Positions 1,831 to 56,095 of a stretch of 64,000 nucleotides of DNA are shown here, piece by piece. The translations under genes were made by a program, and so were the position numbers. The first letter of the stretch is position 1. Every line of letters starts with the position of its first letter. The DNA comes from Phoronis australis (Eukaryota; Animalia; Phoronida). The stretch spans positions 783,012 through 847,011 of the forward strand of contig NMRA01000134.1 of NCBI GenBank assembly GCA_002633005.1, given 5' to 3'. The notes beneath the pieces were generated by a model that made no database searches, was not told the DNA's origin, and saw only the letters and a list, made by a program, of their open reading frames with translations.

Positions 1831-2004
1831 TTGAGGCTCATGAATCTAAGTAGTTATATGGTTTTTGTTTCAATTGTGGTTAATCATCATCATGGTCATT
1901 CGTTAGCATCATAACCATCACTAAATACATTCACATTGCTAAAAAGTAAATTGTTCAATCTTCGCTTCTATTATTCAGTTGACCTTTATGTGACTCTGTT
2001 CCAG

Positions 2005-2201
2005 TCGCTGAACGGCGCTCATAAGGACTGGATATGTGCCTTGTCCATTCTGCCTGGCGGCACCCTGCTGAGTGGCTGCAGGGGTGGGGTGCTCAAGTTG
2101 TGGGATGTCCAGTCATGCACGCCCCTGGGGGAGGTCAAAGGACACAAGAGTGCTGTGAATGCAGTGGCCACTAACACCACCTCTATATTCACCGCCTCCA
2201 A
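2005..2201 (+). CDS. KIF21: KIF21-family WD40 exon (penultimate)
   Basis: ttccag acceptor, GTGAGT donor at 2202. Peptide SLNGAHKDWICALSILPGGTLLSGCRGGVLKLWDV...GEVKGHKSAVNAVATNTTSIFTAS matches KIF21 AHKDWVCAL...LLSGCRGG.LKVW...GHDSPINAI. Confidence 0.93.
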
Positions 2202-3118
2202 GTGAGTGACTCGGTTTGACAAAACTTGTCACAGGGTATCTTACATGCTAGTCATTTCAGTTTGGTGGACTGCTCACCTCGCTCCACAATGTTTCCATGA
2301 CAACATTTTCTTTTTGTTAATTCAAGGCTGGTCTATTTTTGCATTTATGTAGCTTAGCATTCTCGTTAAAGTTATTTTCTTAATTCTACTGTGTCATCAA
2401 TACTCATTGTGTTACATTACATTTGGATTCACCATGTGTTGTTTTAGTATGTGTTCTGTAAGTGATTATACTGAGGGCAATTTCTGACTCACTTTTAGAT
2501 TGAATTGATAAAAACACAAACCGTAGGTTTTCAAAGGTCAAATCAAAATGCAGCATTTTTAAAGCCCTGTGTGAAGTCATTTTTTAAGTTAACTCGATAG
2601 TTAGTGACATACCATGATTTTGCAATAGAATGTTGATCACAAAGACAATAATTGAAGTGCATGACTGTGGTCCTTACATGTAGTAAATTTTATAGCTAAC
2701 TTGCCTTATTAAGAATTTCTATAAAACTGGTGAAGCCTTGTGTTTTTCTCAGCCCTGTCAGACTGTTTCATGTCAACCTATAGCAGTCAGAGACATAAAA
2801 TGTAAGTGTGCCAACCTGGGTTACTATTATATTGTATATAAGTCGGACCTAAAGCAAGTATTCAGTGCTGCTCAGGCAACAAAAGGACACTGCCAGGGGC
2901 TTTAAAAATAATTAAATCAAGCAACACAAGACATCATAATGTGATAATCATTGTGAATCATTTGATAGTGTTATTTCGTGCTGTGGATTGGTTTGTGCAG
3001 AGTTCACTAAAGTCGTGGCGTGCATGCGTTTACATTGTTACTGCAGAAGTATGAGAAACAATGTGTGTTTATTTTGATGTCACATCATTTAACGTATCTG
3101 TTGGTTGTTCTCTTTCAG

Positions 3119-12545: not shown

Positions 12546-14865
12546 GCCACCGTGGATCAAGAAACTCATAATTGTACCTGTGTGAACCGTGATGTGACAT
12601 TCGTTAACGCCTCTCTTTAAAATCGAAAAGAAGGCATGAGTTAAAGAGCCGGTTGAAAGGTTAATAATACTAATCACTAAATAGAGACCAGCATCTCATC
12701 AGTTAGATCTACATATTCCCAAATCATAATTCTAAATACACTGAATTTAAAATGTCTTGTTTTCACACTGGAAGACAGCACCAGTTTTTTTAATCAAAAT
12801 ATAAATGCCATAAGTCGATACTGTCAACTAAACCAGGCTTCACACTTTGTTATAAGAAGATACTGAAGTCCTGTTACTAATACTTTTAAAACATTACCTT
12901 TAGTATTTACATGGATATGCATCAGAACCATCAACGACATGGACCAGAGAATAAGTTGGTACAACCTTAGGGCAAGTTCTAATTAATTACAATGCGTTTT
13001 TATTACAATGATTGGTAATATTTCAAACTTTATTTCACATTTTACATTTTATCACTTACATAGGCTTATTGCTTTCTAATTAATAACTCTACTTAACGCA
13101 TAAAAAGAGTTTTCCTGGTAACCAACAGGTGTCAAATACAAAATGATTATCACTCTCATTCCCATGTACATTGCTTACCATCTTTGAAGGGAAGTGAGAG
13201 TTTTAGAGGGTTGTTTTATATCTTTAATCAGGTGTATTGAAAGGTTAAAATCCTAGAGTATATTCCTAACATAGGCCTCGTGCAAAAGGTCAATCAGTAC
13301 ATTTTGATTAGAAAACATTGAATCAGTAGCAAAAGACCAATATAGGTTAAATACTTCAAAAGTTTTAATCACTCTGAATTGATATCTTAGTCACAAAAAA
13401 CAATTTAACACTAGAAATTCAGAGGGTAAGTCCGTCACACACACTCAACTTACATCGAGCTGTTTGAAGAAAATTTCTTAGAAGATATCATCAAAAACTT
13501 TAGTGTTTTGTACTTTGCAAACATTGAACTAAATCATCATATAAAGCAAAAAATTATAACCAAATGCAACTCGCAGAGAATTAATTTTAATTTTTTTTCA
13601 AAATTTCAAATTCCCTGCGTACGTCCGTCACACCCATTTAAAGGCAGTTTTCTCAGTCAGATAAAAGGATAGGAGAAAAGTTGATACATGCTTTGGAAGC
13701 TATTACTGAGACCTATCAATTGATGTACTAATCATTTTCTTAGGATGCACAGTTTTTCACAATTGATCAAAATGCTCTCTGATTGTACGCCCGTCACAAA
13801 GGGAATTGGCCACATACAATTTTGATACCAGATGTGAATGTTTGCAGTGAAACGTCAATAGTATTTATTGAATATTTATTTAGTAAAAATAAAACTCTTA
13901 AATCCAGTAACACCACATCACTCAATAACAGCAAGTCTCATAAATTATCAATATTGTCGTACTGGCAACTGTGTACAACCTGATTGTATCTGTGATAGCG
14001 GTTAAAACATGGAAGCTAATGTCGATAGGTCTAACCTTCTGAAAGTAACGGATCGTTGACTCTTAAGAACCATCTTACACGTACGTGTACCTTGCTTATA
14101 TTTACCGCGTCATCATTTGTATATACACGTATAACACAAGAAATCATATAAGCCAATTCAAATTTTATTGAAACAAAAAAGAACGACTTTTAAAAGTCCA
14201 TCTTACACCTATCTTCTTTCAGTTACCGCCAGACTCAATATGTACTTTGAACTAAACAATACATAACACAACAAATCCAGTATACATTACAAAAGCTTGT
14301 CTATTCAATTTAAAAAGCAATTTCAACAGTTCAGCAGCCTGTTCGGTGCCTACATATGAGTTCCTGAGTCACATCAAAGGCCAACATACTGTCAAACTTG
14401 AAATCAACAGTGCAGTAATCTAAGAACCATGATTTTAGACAAGATTGCAAACGTATTACCAATGACGTAAAATTAGCCGTGTCTTGTTTTCCCAGAAACT
14501 GACAATCCAGAACGAACTTTTAAACCATAGAATTGCAAGGTAAAAAATAGTCGCCAATTTCGAGGTCCAACGACACCTCACTAACCAAATATAGGGTCTG
14601 TGCGCCCCGGAATACGTAATGGCTGATAAAGCCAAAATGAGTTAGTCGTGTCTACATCTGTATTGTATGCCGAGACAAGTGACGAGTCATTATTATTCCG
14701 TAGCAACCCCCTGTTGGAAGTATGATAGATATAAAACATCATGGGATTCATACAAGATCATTTTTAAATGATCAACTGTTTAAATAACCATTGCGCCTGT
14801 CGCTGTGCCTATGTTGTGGGTCATGAAACATCGTATTAGTCCCAAACACATCGTTAGAGTTACTA

Positions 14866-15095
14866 AATTTATCGATAGAGTTAGTAAGTCTATCGACAGA
14901 GATAGTAAGTCTATTGACAGAGTTAATAAGTCTATTGACAGAGTTAATAAGTCTATCGATAGAGATAGTAAGTCTATCGATAGAGTTACTAAGTCTATTG
15001 ATAGAGCTAGTAAGTCTGTCGATAGAGGTAGTAAGTCTATCGATAGAGATAGTAAGACTACTGACAGATTTAAGAAGTCTATCGATAGAATTAGC
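14866..15095. repeat. 21-bp minisatellite with palindromic core TCTATCGATAGA (~11 copies)
   Basis: Unit aagtctatcgatagagttagt repeated head to tail; this explains the four overlapping heptad-repeat ORFs in the ORF track. Confidence 0.9.
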
Positions 15096-15224
15096 AATGG
15101 AGAAAAAAGTTCCCCTTGCGGTCCTTTTGCAGCCACCGTATGTCAAAACTGAAACTCGTGTAGGATTCTCTATTTCATTGCTGTTCGTTTTTCAGTGGTT
15201 TATGGTATAATAAGGAATTAAGGA

Positions 15225-34136: not shown

Positions 34137-36408
34137 AGGAGAATGTCACCCGATTTAATTAGCTTTTTTGCAGTCTTAATCGGTCTATATCCACATTGCC
34201 TCTTATACGGTCGACCTCACCTTGCCGAGAGATGTCGCGTTAACTTGTGAGGAAGGTGAGAAACGACGCAGCGACGTCAGTGGTTCACCTGCAGAGTGAA
34301 TGCCACTATATTGCGGTGCATCGTACTCGCTTGTCCGAACTATGAAGCTACGAAGAAAGCGGGTATATCGTTTTTTCGACTTCCTCTAGAGCTCGAAATG
34401 CTTAGGAAGTGGCTCGCGGTAGTGAAGAATGAAAAGTACGCTGTTAATAACCAATATGAGGCTTGAAACTTCTCCGGGTCTGTGGCCGGCATTTCGTTGA
34501 CAGTGATTTCTCTGACGAATTCAGGTTTACCAAAGAACTATCCATACGTTCCGTTGTCTGTACATGTTCACGGCGCATCTCTAGTATTTTTTGATCGGTG
34601 TATTCCGGTTCGAACTGGTAGCCTGTGAAACCTAACGATCCGACCCGTGATGCCTTCGTCAGATGAGCTCTCGACTATAAGTCGGGATTGGCGCCGGGAG
34701 AGTTACCATGTAGACGTTTATTATTCTGCGTTCTATTTCAAAATGAATTATTCTCACCCTAACCAATGCTTATATAAAAGTGAAACAAAGTCTGTCTCAT
34801 TAGATACAATTTGTAATGCCTTTGAAATATTCGTGAGTGCAAATGTTTTGAGAAGCTAGCAATGAATAAATCACTGCGTTCAGTACCGGCTTTAGGTGCA
34901 ATAAAACTAATTGACCGGGCACCGAAGCCGCCGTGTGAGCGCATGCTAATTCAGTGTTTGCTGACAGAGAAAACTGTTGTGAAACAATAACTCGATTTTA
35001 CAAGCTATGGTCACGTGTTAGGAGAATCTTTATTTAGATACACAAATACATTATTCAAATCATTGTTACTGTACAACCGTTGCCCTGACGGTTCTATAGA
35101 AGGGGAACCGGACTTCGCGGCCCCCGACAAGTAAGTAGTTTCCAGTTTCGTGGCTAATTCACCTANTGTTCACGGCGCATCTCTAGTATTTTTTGATCGG
35201 TGTATTCCGGTTCGAACTGATAGCCTGTGAAACCTAACGATCCGACCCGTGATGCCTTCGTCGGATGAGCTCTCGACTATAAGTCGGGATTGGCGCCGGG
35301 AGAGTTACCATGTAGACGTTTATTATTCTGCGTTCTATTTCAAAATGAATTATTCTCACCCTAACCAATGCTTATATAAAAGTGAAACAAAGTCTGTCTC
35401 ATTAGATACAATTTGTAATGCCTTTGAAATATTCGTGAGTGCAAATGTTTTGAGAAGCTAGCAATGAATAAACCACTGCGTTACCGGCTTTAGATGCAAT
35501 AAAAGTAATTGACCGGGCACCGAAGCCGTGTGAGCGCATGCTAATTCATTGTTTGCTGACAGAGAAAACTGTTGTGAAACAATAACTCGATTTCACAAGC
35601 TATGGTCACGTGTTAGGAGAATCTTTATTTAGATACACAAATACATTATTCAAATCATTGTTACTGTACAACTGTTGCCCTGACGGTTCTATAGAAGGGG
35701 AACCTGACTTCGCGGCCCCCGACAAGTAAGTAGTTTCCAGTTTCGTGGCCAATTCACCTAAATAATTACGTGCACATTATTTCTTTGGCTCACTATTATA
35801 GTCTTTTCGTGACTGGAGGTTTAGTTTACAACTTAAGCTGGTTTGTGTTTGTGATGTCCAGTCCCGGCGGCGCGACGGGCCTAGTGATCGGGTTCCGAGC
35901 CACTGGCGGGGAGTAACAAGTGTTTTGTGTGTTTGGAACTGAAAAAATCGCAAGTCTAAAAGTACAACACACAGCTATGTTTCCCCGTTTGTATTTCAAA
36001 GATGAATGATTCGAATTTATCACTAAACAGACCCAAACTCCCGCGATCGACCATGGTAAATTGGCCTACCGAACTCTATAGGCTACGGTACGTTCAAATA
36101 CCTATAAATCCGTAACAATGAAATAAAACAACACGGTAGTTCAAGAACTCGATGTATTTGTAAGGGGTTTACGTCGAATTTTGTTGATTTATTGGCGTAA
36201 AACGATGAATTCAAGCGATGAGTTGACACCAGTAAGCGTGTTGTGAGCAGCTGAACAGACTGCGTTCGAACCGATTACGTCATTGGTTAATTTCAACATC
36301 TCCGTCTGCCGTTAGGTGTCAGGTAAAACAACTGAACTTGCTGCATCGAGTGGAACTGCTCGATCTAAATTGATACAAAATAGGTTGTTTTTTGGGTGGC
36401 ATTCTCCT
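34137..36408 (+). mobile_element. Kolobok-type non-autonomous DNA transposon with a THAP remnant
   Basis: TTAA|AGGAGAATGTCACCC ... GGGTGGCATTCTCCT|TTAA. Internal + strand RCIVLACPNYEATKKAGISFFRLP...LRKWLAVV...RVCGRHFVDSDF (34313-34510, frameshifted THAP). Confidence 0.8.
34565..35760 (+). repeat. ~600-bp near-identical tandem duplication joined by a single N (probable haplotype/assembly artefact)
   Basis: 34565-35165 is nearly identical to 35167-35760 with a few SNPs and small indels; N at 35166. Confidence 0.85.
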
Positions 36409-37746
36409 TTAACATATTCCCAAAATATCCAGCATCGATTAGCTGATTTTTAAGTGTGAACAACATGTGCTTGATTTTGGAGCGCATTTAAAATGCTGAT
36501 GGTTTTTCTAATCCGATAGTTTGTAAGGAAAGCCACGTTTACACAGTGTCCAACCCAGAGTATTCATACTGATAATTAAAAAAAAATCAGAAGTGAACAG
36601 CCGAACGTCGCTCTGCCAACTAAAACGCCGTAAATAGCGTGTTTTAAATGATACACACAGGACCTGATGTCGGCGAGAATCGGCAATTTGCAAAAAAAAT
36701 CACATTTTCTGGTTTTATTAGCTCTGGCCACAACTTACAGTTGTAACAAGTCTATTCTACCCAACAATAATCCTGAGAAATTATGTTTCGACCGTAAACC
36801 CGATAGTGTCACTTGAAAGATACACCAAACTGGGCTTTACAAATAAAAATATGCTTAGCATAAATTTGATCACTTGAACCTGTGAGAAAAACAGTCATCT
36901 CCTCCCATCGTTTATTCAGAAAAGTTTGCAGTAATGTTGGTACAATTCTACTGACACTGAACAATTTTGTCGAGAAAGTTCTGGTTACAGCTTCGAAAAT
37001 GCGAACAAAACTGTTTCGTGGCTAGCAACAACAAAACCTCTCTGGTCAAAACCTGCCATTAGACGTTCACATCCGTTTGGTTTCAAAGCTTCAGTTGTTG
37101 AAATGCAGTAAATCAAACCTCTTGTACTTAGTGAGCCGCATACATGTCCAAACGTTTTGCTCTAACCATAACAATTTTTGTAAAGAACCATAACAAATCA
37201 TAGCACTGACGAAAACGAGTCAAAGTATTGTCAAGTGTCAAAATGCATTGCATGTACATAGTTACTTATTAGAAGCTCTTACATTTAGTAACTGTGAGTG
37301 TTGTTATACTCTTTAATTTGGCCCTGTCGAGCAAGGCTCATTATATGAGATTATTTCGACAAAAGAGATTGCCAGCAAAAGCCAAAGCGAAGGCTTGAAA
37401 AAAGTTTATTATCGACATCGGCAAAAATGCATAAATTATTAATTCCCGAAAGTACGTAGCATTTTGGAGCTACACCGTACAACTAAAGACACGACAAAAA
37501 TACGTATTTCACATATTGGTTGACATGTGTGGAGTCGTTTTAAACGTGCTTAACTGATGTCAGTCACATATTTGTACTACATTAGCTCAATGCGTCGTGA
37601 CGTTCCATTACATTCCCCAGATATATGTGAGCCTGTAAAATGCTGGTGGCCTGTCAGTTTGAACTCTTTTTTTCGTTCTATATTTCCAGTACCTTGTTCG
37701 CGCACTTGCCGGACATTTCTGACGCGGTCCGTGCAACACCAATAAC

Positions 37747-37815
37747 ATGGGCAACGGGTCATCATTCGAGGTCTCTCGTACCATCCACTTGAACATGGAC
37801 GGAAAACGTGAAAAG
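37747..37815 (+). CDS. PDE9A: PDE9-family cGMP phosphodiesterase, coding exon 1
   Basis: MGNGSSFEVSRTIHLNMDGKREK then GTAAAG donor; aligns with vertebrate PDE9A [23 protein letters not shown] as recalled. Confidence 0.85.
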
Positions 37816-38839
37816 GTAAAGCACCTGGACCTGCACAACAGCACATGACCACGTTGCAGGACAAATAACTCCAGGGCAGTGATGCAGAGGGAAAGGTTGT
37901 GCAGTGACCCTGCACTTCCGGTATTCAACCATTTGTTTTAGTTAGGAATTCAAATGAAAAATCAAGACATGTCCCATGAAGCCAGAAAACTGGAGGATAT
38001 GTCCGATTTTTACTAGAAACGTAAGCGCTTTCAAAGTGAATGCGGTTTGTCTGACGAAATTGATGGCAAAGAAGTTGACGACAATGAATTAGAAAGATTA
38101 CGGATGTCGTTGATGTGCGAAGTAGCTTAACTGACGTATGAAGAATCGCTGAAGCTAGGGCCTGAGCCTGCCTTGGCTGTGCGACCGGCTGTGCGACAAG
38201 TTGAGCAGTAAACATGAGCGAAAACTAGAAAAATGGTAAACGTCCGTTCAATGAACACTTTAGTTTCCATGTGCTGAGAAAAACGTTTTGATAAATTTGG
38301 AATAATAAGCGACAGCCATGTCAACGTAAAAGTCAATAGAGGAGCACCCGATCACTCACTGCCCATAATACACTGCTGTGACGTCAAACACACCAGAGAG
38401 TGACCTTTGCATCTTACCGTAGATTATAGACAACAGATTCGCAACTCCGGCATATTCTTACGAGCTGAGTTGAACTCTCCTGACCTATCTGCTGCAGTTT
38501 CCGGTCAGTGTAATTTGACGAGAAATACCTGCATCTACTTTACTGTCCAAAACAGCGAAAAAAACATTAATTTATATTAATTTCGGTATTGAAACGCTTT
38601 TCAAAGTCTTTCAATAGTAGAAGTGTTGGTATTGTGAGTACTTTTGGCAATGCCACTGGTAATTAATTTCAAAATTCAAACTTCGGTTCCGACCCTTTAT
38701 GTCTTCTGCTTGCCCAATAGCAGCATAGTTATCGGACAGTTTTTGATTTACGGTTCACATAGGCCTACTGAGAAAACTACGAAAGCGTGTTGATAAATCA
38801 ACATTCTCAAGTGAGCAGTTCTTCTGGGAAGTGTTGAGT

Positions 38840-38896
38840 GGCCCTTAAAAGGGCCGTAGGTTGTAGGTGTAGCGTGAAATGGTTCTTAAAAGAACC
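38840..38896 (-). promoter_or_regulatory. Two tandem histone-mRNA-type 3' stem-loops plus a purine-rich downstream element
   Basis: On the - strand: caac-GGTTCT-TTTA-AGAACC-attt (38896-38881) and ctac-GGCCCT-TTTA-AGGGCC-actca (38855-38840), then AGAAGAA at +15 (38825-38819). Both fit the 6-bp stem, 4-nt loop GGYYYT-TTTN-ARRRCC consensus. Confidence 0.85.
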
Positions 38897-38906
38897 GTTG
38901 AATAAT

Positions 38907-39223
38907 TCAACATAAATCACACAGTATACCATGCTCACTCAAGTACTGAAGGTCCTCTTCATTCAAGTTTTCATCTGGGAAGGTTGGATGAAAACAGAGG
39001 AGATGACAATATCGATGACAGTTGTAACACCTTAGATAGATATTACCGTTCACCAACGTTGTCACGAACCCTGCATCGTTCAGTTCTTGTTCCTGTATCC
39101 ACAAATAATCCTGAACTGTAGGAAAAAATGACAAAGAACACAACGAATCAAATTTCGAAAATCATCGCCTTCGTGCGATTCCGTGTTGCTGTCACCAGAC
39201 TGATGTTCTTCCCCAACGTCCAT
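38907..39223 (-). CDS. Small acidic PHD-finger-like (C4HC3) protein; one apparent frameshift in a T-run, or a terminal exon starting at 39115
   Basis: MDVGEEHQSGDSNTESHEGDDFRNLIRCVLCHF/FPTVQDYLWIQEQELNDAGFVTTLVNGNIYLRCYNCHRYCHLLCFHPTFPDENLNEEDLQYLSEHGILCDLC*, giving CxxC...CxxC-x4-H-x2-C...CxxC. The frames join if the A6 run at 39123-39128 is A7. Confidence 0.6.
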
Positions 39224-39386
39224 TGTAAAAAATCGACGTTGCAAGTGATGGAAACTTGTCTACGCTCTCGTCCTTTGTTTCTAACCTTTAACCCATTTTT
39301 TAATAAAGGGGTGTACTGTTTTTGTCTCCTGTTGATAGTGCATAATCTATGGTTTTACAATGTATTAATCGTGTTAAATGCATATA

Positions 39387-40075
39387 NNNNNNNNNNNNNN
39401 NNNNNNNNNNNNNNNNNNNNNNNNNNNNNNNNNNNNNNNNNNNNNNNNNNNNNNNNNNNNNNNNNNNNNNNNNNNNNNNNNNNNNNNNNNNNNNNNNNNN
39501 NNNNNNNNNNNNNNNNNNNNNNNNNNNNNNNNNNNNNNNNNNNNNNNNNNNNNNNNNNNNNNNNNNNNNNNNNNNNNNNNNNNNNNNNNNNNNNNNNNNN
39601 NNNNNNNNNNNNNNNNNNNNNNNNNNNNNNNNNNNNNNNNNNNNNNNNNNNNNNNNNNNNNNNNNNNNNNNNNNNNNNNNNNNNNNNNNNNNNNNNNNNN
39701 NNNNNNNNNNNNNNNNNNNNNNNNNNNNNNNNNNNNNNNNNNNNNNNNNNNNNNNNNNNNNNNNNNNNNNNNNNNNNNNNNNNNNNNNNNNNNNNNNNNN
39801 NNNNNNNNNNNNNNNNNNNNNNNNNNNNNNNNNNNNNNNNNNNNNNNNNNNNNNNNNNNNNNNNNNNNNNNNNNNNNNNNNNNNNNNNNNNNNNNNNNNN
39901 NNNNNNNNNNNNNNNNNNNNNNNNNNNNNNNNNNNNNNNNNNNNNNNNNNNNNNNNNNNNNNNNNNNNNNNNNNNNNNNNNNNNNNNNNNNNNNNNNNNN
40001 NNNNNNNNNNNNNNNNNNNNNNNNNNNNNNNNNNNNNNNNNNNNNNNNNNNNNNNNNNNNNNNNNNNNNNNNNNN
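39387..40075. other. Assembly gap (N run)
   Basis: Run of N inside the P-like element. Confidence 1.
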
Positions 40076-40208
40076 TTCCATTCACGTCGACGCGAGAACA
40101 TAACTTTTTCTCCCACAGCGGATTTTGGGGTCTCCGTACACTATGGAAGCTAACGCCTCTGCATTTCGCCTGCGTAGCCGAACAACCGGCCACACAGCAA
40201 CCGACCAT
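40076..40208 (-). pseudogene. THAP domain N-terminus of the P-like element (runs into the gap)
   Basis: MVGCCVAGCSATQAKCRGVSFHS...WEKK; DPKIR lies in an adjacent frame, suggesting a frameshift. Confidence 0.7.
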
Positions 40209-40969
40209 GATTAGCAGACGACGTACTTGCCGGAAATTACACCAGATAATTTAGCCAGGTGTCGCCAGTGAATAATGACGTAAAGGCTTGTGCGCAAGCT
40301 CACAGATTTCGTCCATTGAAAGTATACGGAGTTGGCGGTCCATGTACTATAGTCTATGATCTTACCAAGGACACTTTGGCGTGAATTGCAACTAATACAA
40401 ACTATAGTGGGTGCAGTTTCAAAAAGAGCACTGGGATTATTGGTGTTATGAGTAACCTGAGTAGGGAAGTCAAACATACATGTACAGACTTCGGGATTTG
40501 TTCTTTAAAAAGAACGAGCTTGTCATTGCTGCTCAATACAACATGCACCGAGTTGAACTCCACCGTCGTCATTTCATGCTCTGAAGGCAATGTAGCTGTA
40601 AATAAAATGGAATGGAAACTTTTAGCGTGCTTCCGCGAAAGTACGCTAGAAGAAGACACCATTGTGTTAAGGGATTAGTAGCGAAGTATAATGAAGAAAC
40701 AGAATTTGCAAGTTTCGTGCGAGATAATCATGTTTATGGAAAATAGGCGAACAATCACAATATTGGAAAAACGCATTCGCATGATTACAAACGCCATGGC
40801 ATTATTTTGTGCACATAATAAAGTTTTTGTGATCATCAACGATTTCAAAAAATATATAAGTTTTTCAAAGTAATTTTAAAGAAATTTGTTCTTGGTGATG
40901 AAGGTAACCGATTAGCTCAACACAGAGTGACGTGAATGGAGTTGTGAATTCAATTGAAAATCGTTTCAG

Positions 40970-41040
40970 ATTGTGTTCAGCCGTCACATGAGTAACCGAG
41001 ATGTTCATGAACTCATTGCTGTGGCCGCCAACTTTGACAA
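40970..41040 (+). CDS. PDE9A: PDE9 coding exon 2
   Basis: tttcag acceptor, GTAAGT donor, 71 nt; IVFSRHMSNRDVHELIAVAANFD resembles [22 protein letters not shown]. Confidence 0.8.
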
Positions 41041-41401
41041 GTAAGTTAAAGATGTCCGCAATATTATGCACCCCACAGTGACCTGCTAACTATCCTTTCC
41101 TTTGATTTCTATGTGACTGTAATTTTGTTGAATAAACAACTGTACTCGTTATTCAACTTGATTTTACCCCGAGTCACACGAGACTGTGATTCTTCCGAAA
41201 AGTCTGTTTGTAACACCTTGAAAATACATTACAGCAGTACGCTACTGTATATACTAATTGTCCTGGAACAATAATTACAACCACACTACGAATCAATAAC
41301 AAATGACGTGCGTGTCTGTAAATATGACATCGTTAGCAAGACATGCAAGACCTGTAAATTACATCAAAACACGTTTAATTCTGGGTATCAATTTCTTTCA
41401 G

Positions 41402-41479
41402 AAATTCGACGATAACGTTGAAGAATAATGAAGGAAGTATTGTACCTGTGTCTCCCTTGATGCCGTCCAACACGCAAAG
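41402..41479 (+). CDS. PDE9A: PDE9 coding exon 3
   Basis: tttctttcag acceptor, GT donor, 78 nt, phase compatible; NSTITLKNNEGSIVPVSPLMPSNTQ resembles [25 protein letters not shown]. Confidence 0.8.
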
Positions 41480-41888
41480 GTTAATAGCTATCATAGAACA
41501 TGTCAGTTTCAGTGCGTAATGCCATGCACATGAACGAATCGCCAATACTTTTGAAAAATAAATTCGTAACTACTATCCAGAAAAAACATCCATTCGAACT
41601 TGTGCTTTGGTCTCAAAGCATGATCTGCGAGCATACGTATAATACCAAGATTTGGGTGCAGTAAATTCCCTGTTGTATAACCATAAGATTTCATTGCATC
41701 TATGTTTACTGATGANTATATACCTAGCGAGGTATATATAATTGCGGGATATATATTGTTCTGGGGCATATACCCAATGGGGCATATATAGCTGCGGGCT
41801 ATATATTATATATATGCCCCGAAACGAGGTCTCAAAATTTTACCCCACTGCAAGGTTTCAAATAATAACCCCATATCTGCATACAAAC

Positions 41889-41889
<1 letters not shown>

Positions 41890-41933
<44 letters not shown>
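41890..41933. repeat. (TA)n microsatellite
   Basis: Direct reading. Confidence 0.95.
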
Positions 41934-41936
<3 letters not shown>

Positions 41937-42930
41937 TGCAAACACAGACCAGACAGAAAGTTACGAAATATCAATATTTTAATGATATTTTTCAACTGAC
42001 GAAACTCGTCTTGTGTTCTGAATTGATGAATTTAAGAAAGAGTAATATTTAAGCGCAGCCATATAGTTCTCCAAGACGATTGACGTAAATAATATTTTTA
42101 TCCTGTTTACAATAATTCCTTCACGTCACTTATAATTAATTTACGGAACAAAGAATTGATTTACGCCGTTAACAATTATCAATTTGCTCACTAAATTTAC
42201 GTGCGTTATCACCCATTTGGCCAATAGCGATGAGAAGGTTATTGGCAGTGCTTTTTTATCATTTGCTAGCGCACTATTCGACATCCGTTCAACTAGTGTA
42301 CTCAAGCGCAGAAACAAAAAGTGCACAAAGAGAGATCATCAAACGGAAAATATAACAGACCATCCTAGAAAAAGAACAATCTGATGATTTTATAACGATA
42401 TAGAAAGCAACCCGTAGCTGTTAAGCAACTACTGGTACATGCTTAAAACACGACAACGATTTTTGCAGTATATGCATAAATCCATTGGCCCAAAGTATAA
42501 AGATGTAAGCCATTTGTAATATTATTGCGATTTCTTGGCAGAAATGTTATCCATCGTATTTACTTATACTCATGAAATATAATTCTGGTGTCAGGCAATG
42601 ACTGTCAGTATTCTCGTAGCCCTGGAATAGAAACTAATTCTATCACAGATAGTGGTCTAAATTAAAAGTTTGGTTCTCGTGATGGAAGAGTTTATTGTCC
42701 CAAGAACTGAACGTTTTTGATCACCCTTGTTGGTGGCAAAGTACCCACGTCCTTCAAAGTCTTCGAGATAATGTCTACATCTGGGGCGTCAGATAGTTTG
42801 ACAGTCCATCTCCAAATCCACAAAAAATCTTGTCCCTACCTAAGATTACATTGTCCGTCAGATATTCCGTCTGTAATGTTCGAAATCACGCAGGAGTATT
42901 CATGTTAACGCCAACTTTATTGTTTTTCAG

Positions 42931-42989
42931 CACTCCGTACTCAGTGCACGTGAAGACACCTCGTCAATCCGAAGTCAATACGTCGCGCG
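42931..42989 (+). CDS. PDE9A: PDE9 coding exon 4
   Basis: tttttcag acceptor, GTAAGG donor, 59 nt, phase compatible; TPYSVHVKTPRQSEVNTSR starts like TPYKV. Confidence 0.7.
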
Positions 42990-43632
42990 GTAAGGGGCAA
43001 TGTAAGTAATTTTGTTATTGTCACGTTTGTTGAATATAAAGCTAATGTTTCTGTATCTTCCATCTACATATCCGTTTTGTTTCGCAATTGTTTTTTTTTC
43101 ATATTTACCCACTTCTAATTGTATAGTTTCTGCATTTCAGAACATGGGCAATTTTTTCGTTTTATTATGTTCCAATATAAAGAACTTTACTTGTCAACTT
43201 TCTATGAAATATGTGCTTCTGGTGTTGACAACAAGAAGAGATAATTACACCAATGAAGTGAATGCGTAGAGCTTGGGCGTAATTAATCATGCAAAATACC
43301 TATAATAAAGGATGTTAATAAGATTGATATTACTTCATATTACTCACTGATGACATTGAGTTGCAAATTAGGTGAGGCTCAAGTTGCTGACAGTAAATCT
43401 CTTGCGAAATAAAAGGTGACAAAAATTGCATTGCTGAATATTTTCATGTTACTAAATAAGAAATGTGTACCTTGTTATGTATTCACTGAATTCATCTTTG
43501 AAAAGTACGTTATAAAAATCACAACCTCGTGACATTCTCTAACTATAAGAGTCTTCATAGCCACGCCTTCAGTTGTCTGATTGGCAGCGCTCAGTAGTCA
43601 AAGTACTACATATCTTCCATTCTGTCTTTCAG

Positions 43633-43687
43633 ATGGAAAGGAGGATGTAGCTGCCATTCTTAATCAAGTTGCCGACCAGTTCAATAA
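43633..43687 (+). CDS. PDE9A: PDE9 coding exon 5
   Basis: ctttcag acceptor, GTGAGT donor; DGKEDVAAILNQVADQFNK resembles EELIQSVLAQVAEQFSR. Confidence 0.85.
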
Positions 43688-43786
43688 GTGAGTAGATCAC
43701 AACACGAGATAATGCGACATTGTTTGAAGTAAGAAAAGAACAAAAGGATGAACTCTACCTTAAATCGTCAACACAAGGGGCATTAA

Positions 43787-45294
43787 AGGAGAAGCCAACC
43801 CTTTTCATATCATTTTTAGTAGAAATACGGTTCCTTTGATTATCCCAGACATATGTTCCAGTTAAATACGGCTTCCCGTAATTTTATAAATTAGTCGTGC
43901 CCTACTCCGGAAGTGACCTTTAAGGGGTTAAGAATTTCCCGCCTGATTTTGTTTCTGCGTTCAAGTTTACTGTGAGGATCTGTTCCACTGTTGTTTTCGT
44001 TCTGATTTCCTAAAATTGTTGTCACCACTTCCCATCGACGAGCTAGGTTGTAAGAGAACTCAATTACGTTGGATTTAGAAATCGTTTACCTGAAAATGGC
44101 TGGAGTCACAGACACAGTGACGTGAGTGACAGAGACATTATTCATACCAGTGGTGTCGAGGATTTCTGTCACGAATAGTCAGTGGGTGGAAATATGTTTG
44201 CACCCCAGTATAGTGAGGCAGAATACGCACAGACAGCTATGAGAGTAATGAGGCAGATACTGAGGACAGACGTGGTGGGACGTCTTTATTGGTGCAAAAT
44301 GCACGGTATGCAATGATATGCCGACCTCAATGGAATGCTTCTGCTGTTCCCAAACCGCTCACATCCCGCCGTATGACTCCCTCGCGACACACTTGGCACT
44401 TTTTACATAGCTCCAATACTTTAGTCAAGTCCACAATAAACTTATCAAAGTTTGTCTAACCGGCCTGTTCTCTGAACGACGATCTATCCTCCTCACTGGG
44501 TGTTGAACTGGGCCTGTATTCACATCACTTCTCAACATCGCGGCAGAGCTGCTTACAGGCTCTGGGCTAGGGACAACACCAGCACAGGGCGAATCACTGC
44601 TAGTTCCCGGAATTGCAAGTTCTGGGGGGTACATGTACGTTCCTAGGCACAGGTGACAGTAAATGAAGGGCCTTTACTCACTGTGGAGGCCACATCTCGC
44701 GACGCGGCTTCTGCCTTCAATAATGCACTTGCCGTGGGTGGCAACGAGGCACTGGCGGAATCAACAGCGACAGTATGGTACCCTTCTTCAGGCGTTGTTT
44801 TGCAGGAACTTTCATCAATTCCGCGAACAAACGTCTTTAGTAATCCGATGGAAGAAAATGCTTGCCACACACTCGGTAATTCTCCACTGCTTAATTGCGT
44901 GGACTGGTACCGCTGCGTTATTCACACCAACGAGCCAAGTACGGCGGAGTGTGCATCGTTTGGAAAGCGATGTAAATGCATACTCAATGTGCGCGTTAGA
45001 CGATGATGTGTACATACAGGTATGGAAAAAACATACGGCATGTTGACTGACTCGTAACAACCGAACTTATCACAACCGAGCTAAAACAAGGACTGACTTG
45101 ACAGTCACAAAATCAGACTATATGAAAACAAAATGGCAGAAAATTCTTAACCCGGGCCTAAACGTCACTTCTGGAGTAAGGCACGACTAATTAATAAAAT
45201 TATGGGAAGCTGTTATTAATTGTAAAATATGACTGGGATAATCAAAGAAACGTATTTTTACTAAAAATGACACGAATAAAGGTTGTCATCTCCT
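43787..45294. mobile_element. Kolobok-type element with ~155-bp TIRs, carrying convergent KolX/P2X7-ballast-like (+) and THAP (-) remnants
   Basis: TTAA|AGGAGA...TCTCCT|TTAA with long imperfect inverted repeats. + strand MFAPQYSEAE...WCK/CTVCNDMPTSMECFCC (44195-44350). - strand MPYV..IPVC...LHRFPND/LRRTWL.../RVCGKHFLPSDY...RLKKGTILS (45041-44765). Confidence 0.8.
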
Positions 45295-45485
45295 TTAAAA
45301 GTTATATTTTCTTTAATTTACAAAAATGTTTATCAAGTGAAAAAGTTCTAAGGTGTACATTTGAACAATGTAGTTTTTGCATTATTTTAACACAGATTTT
45401 CACACGTGAAACCGTTTATTATCAAAGATGCCATTCTAAGTTTCGTCTAATTTAATTGTGTTATTGTTCATTTAATTATTTTAGG

Positions 45486-45800
45486 CAAACCGACAAGATC
45501 ACTAAATACTGTTCAATGTCTTCACCCCAAACCGTCAAGTTCACTGAATGCTGTTCAATGTCTTCGCCTCAAACAGAAAAGTTCACTAAATGCTGTTCGA
45601 TGTATTCACCCCAAACCAACAAGATCACCAAATGCTGTTCAATGTATTCAACCCAAACCGACAAGATCACTAAATGCTGTTCAATGTATTCCCCCCAAAC
45701 CGACAAGATCACTGAATGCTGTTCAATGTCTTACCCCAAACTGAAAAGTTCACTAAATGGTGTTCAATGTCTTCACCCCAAACCGACAAGATCAAATGCT
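45486..45800. repeat. 42-bp intronic minisatellite (~7.5 copies)
   Basis: Unit caaaccgacaagatcactaaatgctgttcaatgtattcaccc; produces the 14-aa periodic Cys-rich ORF 45456-45968. Confidence 0.9.
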
Positions 45801-55518: not shown

Positions 55519-55815
55519 CATTTGGACACGTTGGATGTCATCCACACATTTATTCAGGCATTCAGGCAATGTAGATCAATCGCAAATTCATTTGGACTAA
55601 CACGTTGGATGCCATCCACACATTTATTCAGGCATTCAGGCAATGTAGATCAATCGCAAATTCATTTGGACTAACACGTTGGATGTCATCCACACATTTA
55701 TTCAGGCATTCAGGCAATGTAGATCAATCGCAAATTCATTTGGACTAACACGTTGGATGTCATCCACACATTTATTCAGGCATTCAGGCAATGTAGATCA
55801 GTCGCAAATTCATTT
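55519..55815. repeat. 74-bp tandem repeat, 4 near-identical copies
   Basis: Units start at 55519 (4 nt shorter), 55589, 55663 and 55737; each has the interrupted palindrome TGGATG-N-CATCCA. Confidence 0.95.
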
Positions 55816-56095
55816 TTGTCTCAAGCTCCCGAAATGTGTGTTAATTTGACTTCCCAATGGAAGAAGTTTGTTCAATAGTCCGTCTCATTGTATACAAACG
55901 TACACCAGTCTTGCACGACTGACAAGGGTTGTAAGTCACGTTTGATAAACAGGAATATTGCAACAAGCATTTTGAGTGATTTATTGTGTAGAGGCAGGTG
56001 ATTCAAGCGTTAAAGTGGTGAAAAGAAAAAGTAAAACTATTATGCCGCTCCTCTCAACCTGAATCCGTCCTTTAATGGCAAATTTCCTTCGACAG

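What the first reader, a model, noticed from the sequence alone, without database searches (positions are those of the whole stretch)
38819..39223. Non-histone PHD-finger-like gene ending in two histone-mRNA 3' stem-loops
Seen in sequence: on the - strand an acidic ~105-aa reading frame with C4HC3 PHD-like spacing (CVLC...CYNC-x4-H-x2-C...CDLC) stops at 38907. Ten nt later comes GGTTCT-TTTA-AGAACC, 25 nt after that GGCCCT-TTTA-AGGGCC-ACTCA, and then AGAAGAA at +15. The two stems differ in sequence but both pair perfectly, which looks like compensatory change. No histone coding sequence is visible in the window. Established knowledge: this 6-bp stem, 4-nt loop plus a purine-rich downstream element is the SLBP/U7-snRNP signal of replication-dependent, non-polyadenylated histone mRNAs, and PHD fingers commonly read histone H3 tails. 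Inference: a mobile-element or virus-derived chromatin-reader gene uses the histone 3'-end pathway, so it would be expressed with histones in S phase or early embryos and be missed by poly(A) RNA-seq. Caveats: the frame needs one extra base in a T6 run, or the segment is a terminal exon using the good acceptor tcattttttcctacag (exon start 39115); the upstream context falls in an N gap.
Basis: partly seen in the sequence, partly recalled or inferred. Interest (0 to 1): 0.88.

Follow-up and report, generated by a model that had tools for sequence, protein, structure and literature searches.

The report
Transposon gene with histone-type mRNA hairpins
A many-copy jumping DNA element in an animal genome carries a small zinc-finger gene followed by two RNA hairpins of the kind thought to be reserved for histone messages, so the element likely borrows the host's histone-message machinery, although RNA reads did not show messages ending there.

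Summary
Observation confirmed, context changed. Both hairpins are real (Rfam Histone3 33.4 and 21.8 bits, cut-off 34; about 0.013 such hairpins expected per window). They lie inside a 1.94-kb multi-copy DNA transposon (38418-40358) with about 32-bp imperfect terminal repeats, a 7-bp target duplication and a THAP-like start, which points to the P superfamily. It sits antisense in an intron of a PDE9A-like gene. Other copies are in frame across this copy's T6 break; listed variants among copies are biased to synonymous (12 of 22). The protein belongs to a family of about 108-aa acidic C4HC3 (PHD-like) proteins. In 3 informative distant loci the family gene is followed directly by a different transposase and has no hairpin, so the hairpins are specific to this element. 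The two stems differ by two fully compensated pairs. Against: stranded RNA reads run through both hairpins with no piled-up ends (library selection unspecified), and the fold search was uninformative. Best reading: a transposon accessory gene that likely uses SLBP/U7 processing; use is not shown. Main rival: a captured histone 3' UTR riding along. No such case found in 10 full-text searches.

The parts
38411..38417 (.). Left target-site duplication (7 bp, ATCTTAC)
   Evidence: Identical 7-mer on both flanks
38418..38449 (+). Left terminal inverted repeat (about 32 bp, imperfect; other copies begin CATAGA, this copy has G at 38419)
   Evidence: Alignment of the ends; 85-115 RNA reads per row break off at 38416/38420 into unrelated flanks, and nearly all reads show A at 38419
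38819..38825 (-). Purine-rich candidate histone downstream element (AGAAGAA, +15 from hairpin 2)
   Evidence: Sequence; pairing to the host U7 snRNA not tested
38840..38855 (-). Histone-type stem-loop 2, 51 nt after the stop codon
   Evidence: Rfam Histone3 33.4 bits, E 1e-7; fold
38881..38896 (-). Histone-type stem-loop 1, 10 nt after the stop codon; no purine-rich element behind it
   Evidence: Rfam Histone3 21.8 bits, E 0.0021
38907..39223 (-). Acidic N-terminus plus C4HC3 PHD-like frame (about 105 aa), frameshifted in this copy at the T6 run 39128-39123
   Evidence: In-frame copy P0001; one more base at 39120-39122 in contigs and reads of other copies; profile match to family A3, probability 99.5 over 97 columns; synonymous bias
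39387..40075 (.). Assembly gap (689 N) inside the element; content unknown
40077..40208 (-). THAP-like start of a frame (44 aa, runs into the gap), ATG 150 nt inside the right end, same strand as the PHD frame
   Evidence: Pfam THAP is the only hit, E 0.027, 15.7 bits against cut-off 23.9, profile positions 1-37 of 87
40327..40358 (-). Right terminal inverted repeat
   Evidence: 98-175 RNA reads per row break off at 40357/40358 into unrelated flanks
40359..40365 (.). Right target-site duplication (ATCTTAC)
37747..37815 (+). Probable first coding exon of the host PDE9A-like gene; the element lies antisense in the intron behind it
   Evidence: ATG frame ending at a GT donor, assigned to PDE9A from recall; spliced RNA joints 41477-42929 and 43001-43633; downstream exon 61669-61815 matches PDE9A at E 2e-20

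Best explanation
A multi-copy DNA transposon with P-element-like ends carries a small acidic PHD-like zinc-finger gene followed by two histone-type stem-loops, which likely bind SLBP and, at the second hairpin, would direct U7-dependent cleavage so that the message is handled like a histone mRNA. Shown: the element, its ends, its many copies, the frame intact in other copies, the synonymous bias, the two hairpins and their compensated differences. Inferred: (1) the hairpins arose by a short tandem duplication and were both kept under selection for SLBP binding; (2) hairpin 2 (51 nt after the stop, followed by ACTCA and a purine run at +15) is the processing site, ending the RNA near 38835, and hairpin 1 is an extra SLBP site; (3) this would tie the protein to S phase or cleavage-stage embryos, when a cut-and-paste element gains copies; (4) the protein is an accessory chromatin-binding partner of transposases, because distant family members sit directly in front of another transposase. 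This window's copy is a non-autonomous, frameshifted relic. Odds by step: element 0.95; gene once selected 0.85; hairpins selected in the element 0.6; true histone-type 3' processing 0.4.
For: Hairpins far above chance. Element ends, 7-bp duplication and THAP-like start; 437 contigs of one DNA run lie on 807 bp of it. Frame intact elsewhere. 12 of 22 listed variants in the frame are synonymous against 19-27% expected (p 0.0003-0.006), 15 of 22 at third positions (rows are the tool's best-supported subset). The two 41-nt hairpin units match at 3 of 5, 12 of 16 and 10 of 20 positions; all 4 stem differences form two Watson-Crick swaps, which 0.4% of random 4-change sets do (2% with G-U). Family contig X5/3 (depth 34) has 8 differences, all listed: 0 in the 32 hairpin bases, 3 in the 25-nt spacer (p 0.08, weak). 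A contig of organism B spans both hairpins with 4 differences, 3 listed and outside them. The variant at 38858, in all RNA reads covering it, moves the 5' flank of hairpin 2 towards the Rfam consensus. No AATAAA/ATTAAA in the 422 nt from hairpin 2 to the element end (unremarkable alone).
Against: Stranded RNA: sense depth in the frame / hairpin zone / below hairpin 2 is 60.7 / 25.3 / 34.4 (X8) and 38.8 / 36.8 / 45.7 (X9), antisense depth is of the same order, and no place has many molecules ending. X8's drop lies near 38930, upstream of the stop codon, not at a hairpin. Neither hairpin reaches the Rfam cut-off. Distant homologues: 0 hairpins in 4 of 4 loci, 3 of them informative. Only 40 variant rows per call were shown (303 and 219 hidden), so stem conservation across all copies is not established. 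A divergent subfamily seems, read by eye from loose ends, to lack the ATG at 39223 and the first cysteine pair. In human cells SLBP bound no non-histone mRNA (PMC4604434, passages). Hairpin 1 has no downstream purine run. The gap could hide a histone fragment.
Confidence: 0.45

Rival explanations
1. Passenger capture: the element picked up a piece of a host histone gene's 3' end (or two pieces) behind the PHD gene. The hairpins were shaped by selection in histone genes, are young in the element and do nothing there.
For: Distant family members have no hairpin. RNA runs through. Close copies are 85-99% alike, so unchanged 16-nt hairpins are weak evidence (p 0.08). An earlier AI note describes a histone 3' fragment inside a dead transposon (e1-9147041, unchecked).
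Against: No histone coding remnant lies between the stop codon and hairpin 1 (10 nt), and 0 of 11 histone motifs are in the window. The placement directly behind a selected frame, and the look of a local duplication with compensated changes, are hard to get from one neutral capture.
Confidence: 0.3
2. The hairpins are selected SLBP sites but not the 3' end: they sit inside longer, read-through or polyadenylated RNAs and serve translation, stability or as an SLBP decoy, as the hairpin in the long H2A.X isoform still binds SLBP.
For: Sense reads continue below hairpin 2. Hairpin 1 lacks a downstream element. SLBP binds the polyadenylated H2AFX isoform (PMC4604434, passages).
Against: No canonical poly(A) signal before the element end. 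Hairpin 2 has cleavage-type context. The reads may be passive transcription of many copies, since antisense depth is similar.
Confidence: 0.15
3. Structural variant, compatible with the best explanation: the PHD-like domain is not a separate gene here but the end of a longer THAP-linker-PHD frame (a repressor-like or targeting protein), so the hairpins end the element's main message.
For: THAP-like start on the same strand 985 nt upstream. Copies with one base fewer at 39220/39224 and a loose end at 39217 that lacks the ATG when read by eye. The family's usual Met lies about 7 residues further in than this one. 6 of 9 listed upstream variants fall on third positions of one frame (p 0.04 uncorrected).
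Against: All three upstream frames have stops in this copy; the region is rich in indels of 1, 8 and 10 bases; no Pfam hit there; P0001 starts at the same Met; full-length family members are mostly 107-110 aa proteins.
Confidence: 0.25
4. Chance hairpins or an assembly artefact.
For: Both score below the Rfam cut-off; the region is next to an assembly gap.
Against: 0.013 expected per window for one hairpin; independent contigs in two runs span both hairpins.
Confidence: 0.02

Closest known systems
Replication-dependent histone mRNA 3' end (Rfam RF00032 Histone3 plus downstream element; SLBP, U7 snRNP)
   Same: 16-nt hairpin with 6-bp stem and U-rich loop, A/C-rich flanks, purine run 15 nt behind hairpin 2, short distance from a stop codon.
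   Different: The upstream frame is not a histone; two hairpins in tandem; carried by a transposon; scores under the curated cut-off; no RNA end seen. [quoted passage not shown]
P superfamily DNA transposons (P, 1360/Hoppel, Galileo)
   Same: About 32-bp terminal repeats, THAP-like start close to one end, 7-bp target duplication as in 1360 and Galileo, which are also intronless (PMC3698922, passages); short derivatives of about 405 bp that share the ends.
   Different: No transposase core visible (gap estimated at 689 bp); carries a second PHD-like frame and histone-type hairpins, not found described in the papers searched.
About 108-aa acidic PHD-like ORFs in front of Sola1-like transposases (L001, L002, L004; same protein family as Dreissena polymorpha DPMN_056048)
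   Same: Full-length protein homology (probability 99.5), acidic N-terminus, C4HC3 spacing, transposon context.
   Different: Different element ends; the transposase ATG follows the PHD stop within about 2-31 nt; no hairpins. The Sola1 label rests on recalled motifs: Pfam and PDB gave no hit.
RAG2 acidic hinge plus PHD (recalled), a chromatin-reading partner of a transposase
   Same: Acidic stretch plus PHD as a transposase helper (analogy only).
   Different: No kelch domain, canonical C4HC3 spacing, no sequence match to RAG2.

Membership tests
Histone mRNA 3' end (RF00032 + HDE) | 6-bp stem, 4-nt loop with the consensus letters | tested here: met
   Both hairpins
Histone mRNA 3' end (RF00032 + HDE) | Rfam gathering score of 34 bits | tested here: not met
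   33.4 and 21.8 bits; the family's commoner letter at 38858 was not rescored
Histone mRNA 3' end (RF00032 + HDE) | Purine-rich downstream element that pairs with U7 snRNA | tested here: inconclusive
   Purine run at +13 to +24 behind hairpin 2, none behind hairpin 1; host U7 sequence not available
Histone mRNA 3' end (RF00032 + HDE) | Mature RNA ends about 5 nt behind the stem, without poly(A) | tested here: inconclusive
   No piled-up ends at the hairpins in 3 RNA runs; library selection unspecified, about 18-19% of each run read, reads pool many copies
Histone mRNA 3' end (RF00032 + HDE) | SLBP binding and U7 dependence | not testable with these tools
   Needs experiment
Replication-dependent histone gene | Encodes a histone | tested here: not met
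   The frame is PHD-like; 0 of 11 histone motifs in the window; the gap is unseen
P superfamily transposon | Terminal inverted repeats | tested here: met
P superfamily transposon | 7- or 8-bp target-site duplication | tested here: met
   7 bp in this one copy; sizes from PMC3698922
P superfamily transposon | N-terminal THAP domain | tested here: inconclusive
   Only Pfam hit, E 0.027, below cut-off; half the domain lies in the gap
P superfamily transposon | P-type DDE transposase core | not testable with these tools
   Assembly gap; no genome held
PHD finger | C4HC3 ligand spacing | tested here: met
   17 of 22 stored proteins (misses: P0001, P0002, P0004, P0005 decayed or cut; P0006 a false hit); in the window across two frames
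PHD finger | Curated Pfam PHD-clan score | tested here: inconclusive
   Homologue P0003 passes PHD_NSD (27.7 against 23.9); the window's C-terminal piece does not (PHD E 0.09); Atlas best 0.89 with 10 of 10 PHD-clan hits for P0021, a lead only
PHD finger | Cross-brace zinc fold | tested here: inconclusive
   Models of low confidence (pLDDT 51.5 and 57.6); weak PDB sequence hits include PHD (1wev, TRIM33) and the SLX1 RING-like domain, E 0.07-0.4, so a RING variant is not excluded
PHD finger | Binds histone H3 tail | not testable with these tools
   By recall, the usual cage positions hold Tyr rather than Met/Trp; ligand unknown
Polinton or endogenous virus | Viral or Polinton core genes, long termini, 6-bp duplication (recalled) | tested here: not met
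   1.94-kb element with 7-bp duplication; viral-contig scans gave no related locus

The most novel reading that the evidence does not exclude
P-like DNA transposons have evolved histone-type, non-polyadenylated mRNA ends to put a transposase-helper chromatin reader (possibly the whole THAP-PHD message) under SLBP/U7 control, timing element activity to S phase and early embryos and hiding it from poly(A)-based surveys.
Probability: 0.35. Interest if true: 0.86.

Novelty: new variant of a known kind. Interest (0 to 1): 0.64.

Why it matters
Histone mRNAs are described as the only cellular mRNAs that end in this hairpin (PMC4604434). A cut-and-paste transposon using the same signal would break that rule and offer a simple mechanism for cell-cycle timing of transposition. 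It would also mean poly(A) RNA-seq undercounts such transposon messages. The claim is directly testable with 3'-end mapping, SLBP binding and a reporter. Separately, the small PHD-like family in front of transposases is a candidate chromatin-targeting helper for DNA transposons.

Tried and rejected
No own genome held, so no genome-wide hairpin scan or full-length copy. Longer fused homologues: 0 of 1756 candidates scored (weak evidence). Structure prediction gave low-confidence models; Foldseek found nothing at E 0.001 and VIA-align's best Z was 3.1: uninformative. PDB sequence hits to enterovirus VP3 and MHC II beta taken as chance. P0006 (cyanobacterial) and L005 (68% GC, unrelated zinc ribbon) dropped as false hits. 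Prokaryote genomes: 0 of 34 candidates. Viral contigs: one search reported 1 of 8 candidate stretches but returned no locus; hairpin 2 pattern 0 matches. No RNA holder was listed by the index; raw RNA runs of the same species label were laid instead. Terminal-exon model rejected: no listed joint to 39115. Internal segment as a nested Sola insertion rejected by eye: no inner terminal repeats or duplication at 38650/40185. The Atlas answered only for the homologue P0021. Not held, so not read: Bao 2009 (Sola), Yuan and Wessler 2011, Davila Lopez and Samuelsson 2008, Marzluff 2008 and 2017, Spradling 2011; Repbase Reports are not in the library.

Full report
1. Observation. On the minus strand a frame stops at 38907; hairpin 1 follows after 10 nt (38896-38881), hairpin 2 after a further 25 nt (38855-38840), then ACTCA and AGAAGAA at +15. 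Rfam Histone3 scores them 21.8 bits (E 0.0021) and 33.4 bits (E 1e-7) against a cut-off of 34; the gathering scan of the whole window therefore finds nothing. A strict pattern finds these 2 and no others; 300 simulated windows gave 0.013 each. None of 11 recalled histone motifs occurs in the window.

2. The setting is a DNA transposon. Laying four runs on 36500-44000, many RNA reads break off at 38416/38420 and 40357/40358 into unrelated sequence with low agreement, the mark of many insertion sites. The ends form an imperfect inverted repeat of about 32 bp beginning CATAGA, flanked on both sides by ATCTTAC. 150 nt inside the right end a frame starts whose only Pfam hit is THAP (E 0.027, below cut-off, cut by the gap). 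1360 and Galileo, two P-superfamily members, make 7-bp duplications and lack introns (PMC3698922, passages). I file the element as P-like with the catalytic core untested. One DNA run has 437 contigs on 807 bp of it; the tool warns that depth is no copy number, so I say only 'many copies'. Joints from about 38650 to about 40190 show shorter derivatives of about 405 bp without the THAP and PHD parts. The copy lies antisense in an intron, probably the first, of a PDE9A-like gene.

3. The gene was real. P0001 reads through the T6 site in frame (it diverges after residue 81 and lacks the zinc-ligand His). Contig X5/4 (31.1 of 31.1 depth), X3 (438.5 of 743.1) and RNA reads (for example 20 of 58 and 12 of 55 at two placements in X8) have one more base at 39120-39122. 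Of 22 listed variants in the frame 12 are synonymous against 19-27% expected, and 15 are at third positions; these rows are the best-supported 40 per call, with 303 and 219 hidden. No listed joint uses the acceptor at 39115.

4. The protein family. A profile search of 1.84 billion representatives gave 6 hits, one false; a second round gave 14 clusters. Most are 107-110 aa, with an acidic start and C4HC3 spacing (17 of 22 stored proteins). The window profile matches the family at probability 99.5 over 97 columns. P0003 passes Pfam PHD_NSD and has 5 near-identical members on contigs of 0.7-9 Mb; one relative is Dreissena polymorpha DPMN_056048, whose nearest Atlas clusters are all PHD (best 0.89). 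Fold prediction and fold searches were uninformative, and a RING variant is not excluded.

5. The non-circular test went against a family-wide signal. A metagenome scan gave 4 loci from 323 candidates. None has a histone hairpin by Rfam at E 0.5 or by pattern; L003 is cut before its 3' end, so 3 are informative. In L001, L002 and L004 a transposase frame starts about 2-31 nt behind the PHD stop; its motifs look like Sola1 by recall (no Pfam or PDB hit; PMC5751038 notes that Sola lacks a Pfam domain, passages), and the L002/L004 element end differs from the window's. So the PHD-like gene is a transposon accessory found in two kinds of element, and the hairpins belong to this one.

6. Are the hairpins selected? 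The two units look like a 41-nt duplication (3 of 5, 12 of 16, 10 of 20 identical); the 4 stem differences make two Watson-Crick swaps, expected in 0.4% of random sets. This shows selection on both stems somewhere, in the element or in histone genes before capture. Contig X5/3 has all 8 differences listed: none in the hairpins, 3 in the spacer (p 0.08). A contig of organism B has at most 1 unlisted difference that could fall in them. The window's letter at 38858 is the odd one; the others are nearer the Rfam flank.

7. RNA. The libraries appear stranded: 14 of 14 reads on two PDE9 joints have the first mate on minus. The PHD region is read on both strands. Sense depth in frame / hairpin zone / below hairpin 2 is 60.7 / 25.3 / 34.4 in X8 and 38.8 / 36.8 / 45.7 in X9; X10 has about 2 in sense. 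No place at the hairpins has many molecule ends (one search lists one pile at 38866 on the antisense side). A>G and T>C changes are far more common in RNA (52 and 25; 57 and 43) than in DNA (6 and 8), as expected for edited double-stranded RNA, though no DNA of the same animals was laid. Most reads are probably passive transcription of many copies. Library selection is unspecified, so this neither shows nor excludes histone-type ends; it counts mildly against.

8. Mechanism. I commit to: hairpin 2 with its purine run as a U7/SLBP processing site for an intronless transposon accessory message, hairpin 1 as a second SLBP site, and S-phase or embryonic expression of a chromatin-binding helper (0.45; the processing, timing and ligand steps are inferred; the benefit of S-phase transposition is recalled knowledge). 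Rivals: passenger capture (0.3), SLBP sites without cleavage (0.15), chance (0.02); and, as a structural variant, a fused THAP-PHD frame (0.25).

9. Literature. Ten full-text searches listed no title or abstract start on a transposon gene with a histone 3' end or on this PHD family; I saw listings only, except passages of PMC3698922, PMC4604434, PMC3597683, PMC4455052, PMC5751038 and PMC10294476. No supplements were read. Repbase Reports and several key papers were not held, so the element or the Sola-linked PHD may already be catalogued there. Earlier AI notes of this scan report similar signals on a Polinton gene, a RING gene, orphan genes and a repeat in other animals; they are unchecked and not support, but suggest a recurring pattern.

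10. Verdict. Real feature, new variant of known parts, function not shown. Interest 0.64; most novel reading probability 0.35, interest 0.86 if true.

Noticed in passing
L001:826-1200, L002:1845-4006, L004:3088-3755: Small PHD-like ORF whose stop lies about 2-31 nt before the ATG of a Sola1-like transposase, and which starts just behind a splice-acceptor-like site: a possible two-ORF message with a chromatin-reader helper.
   Followed up: partly
window 38418-38649 joined to 40186-40358: Abundant short derivatives (about 405 bp) of the element without THAP or PHD parts, seen as joints in RNA and DNA runs.
   Followed up: partly
window 39120-39230 (reads): A divergent subfamily that, read by eye from loose ends, lacks the ATG at 39223 and the first cysteine pair while staying in frame.
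   Followed up: no
window 38580-39386: Strong excess of A>G and T>C differences in RNA runs over a DNA run, suggesting A-to-I editing of element RNA.
   Followed up: no
window 43830-43922 and 45159-45251: 93-nt inverted repeat (86%) bounding about 1.4 kb inside the PDE9A-like gene: probably another non-autonomous DNA transposon; contains an open frame at 44647-45006 without a clear Pfam hit.
   Followed up: no
window 34565-35760: Tandem duplication of about 600 bp, 98-99% identical: recent duplication or assembly artefact.
   Followed up: no
window 14829-15118, 45444-45779, 55526-55889: Tandem arrays of 21, 42 and 74 nt; the 21-nt array is self-complementary and open in several frames.
   Followed up: no
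window 1915-2205: Last exon of a WD40-repeat gene (Pfam WD40); kinesin KIF21-like by recall.
   Followed up: no
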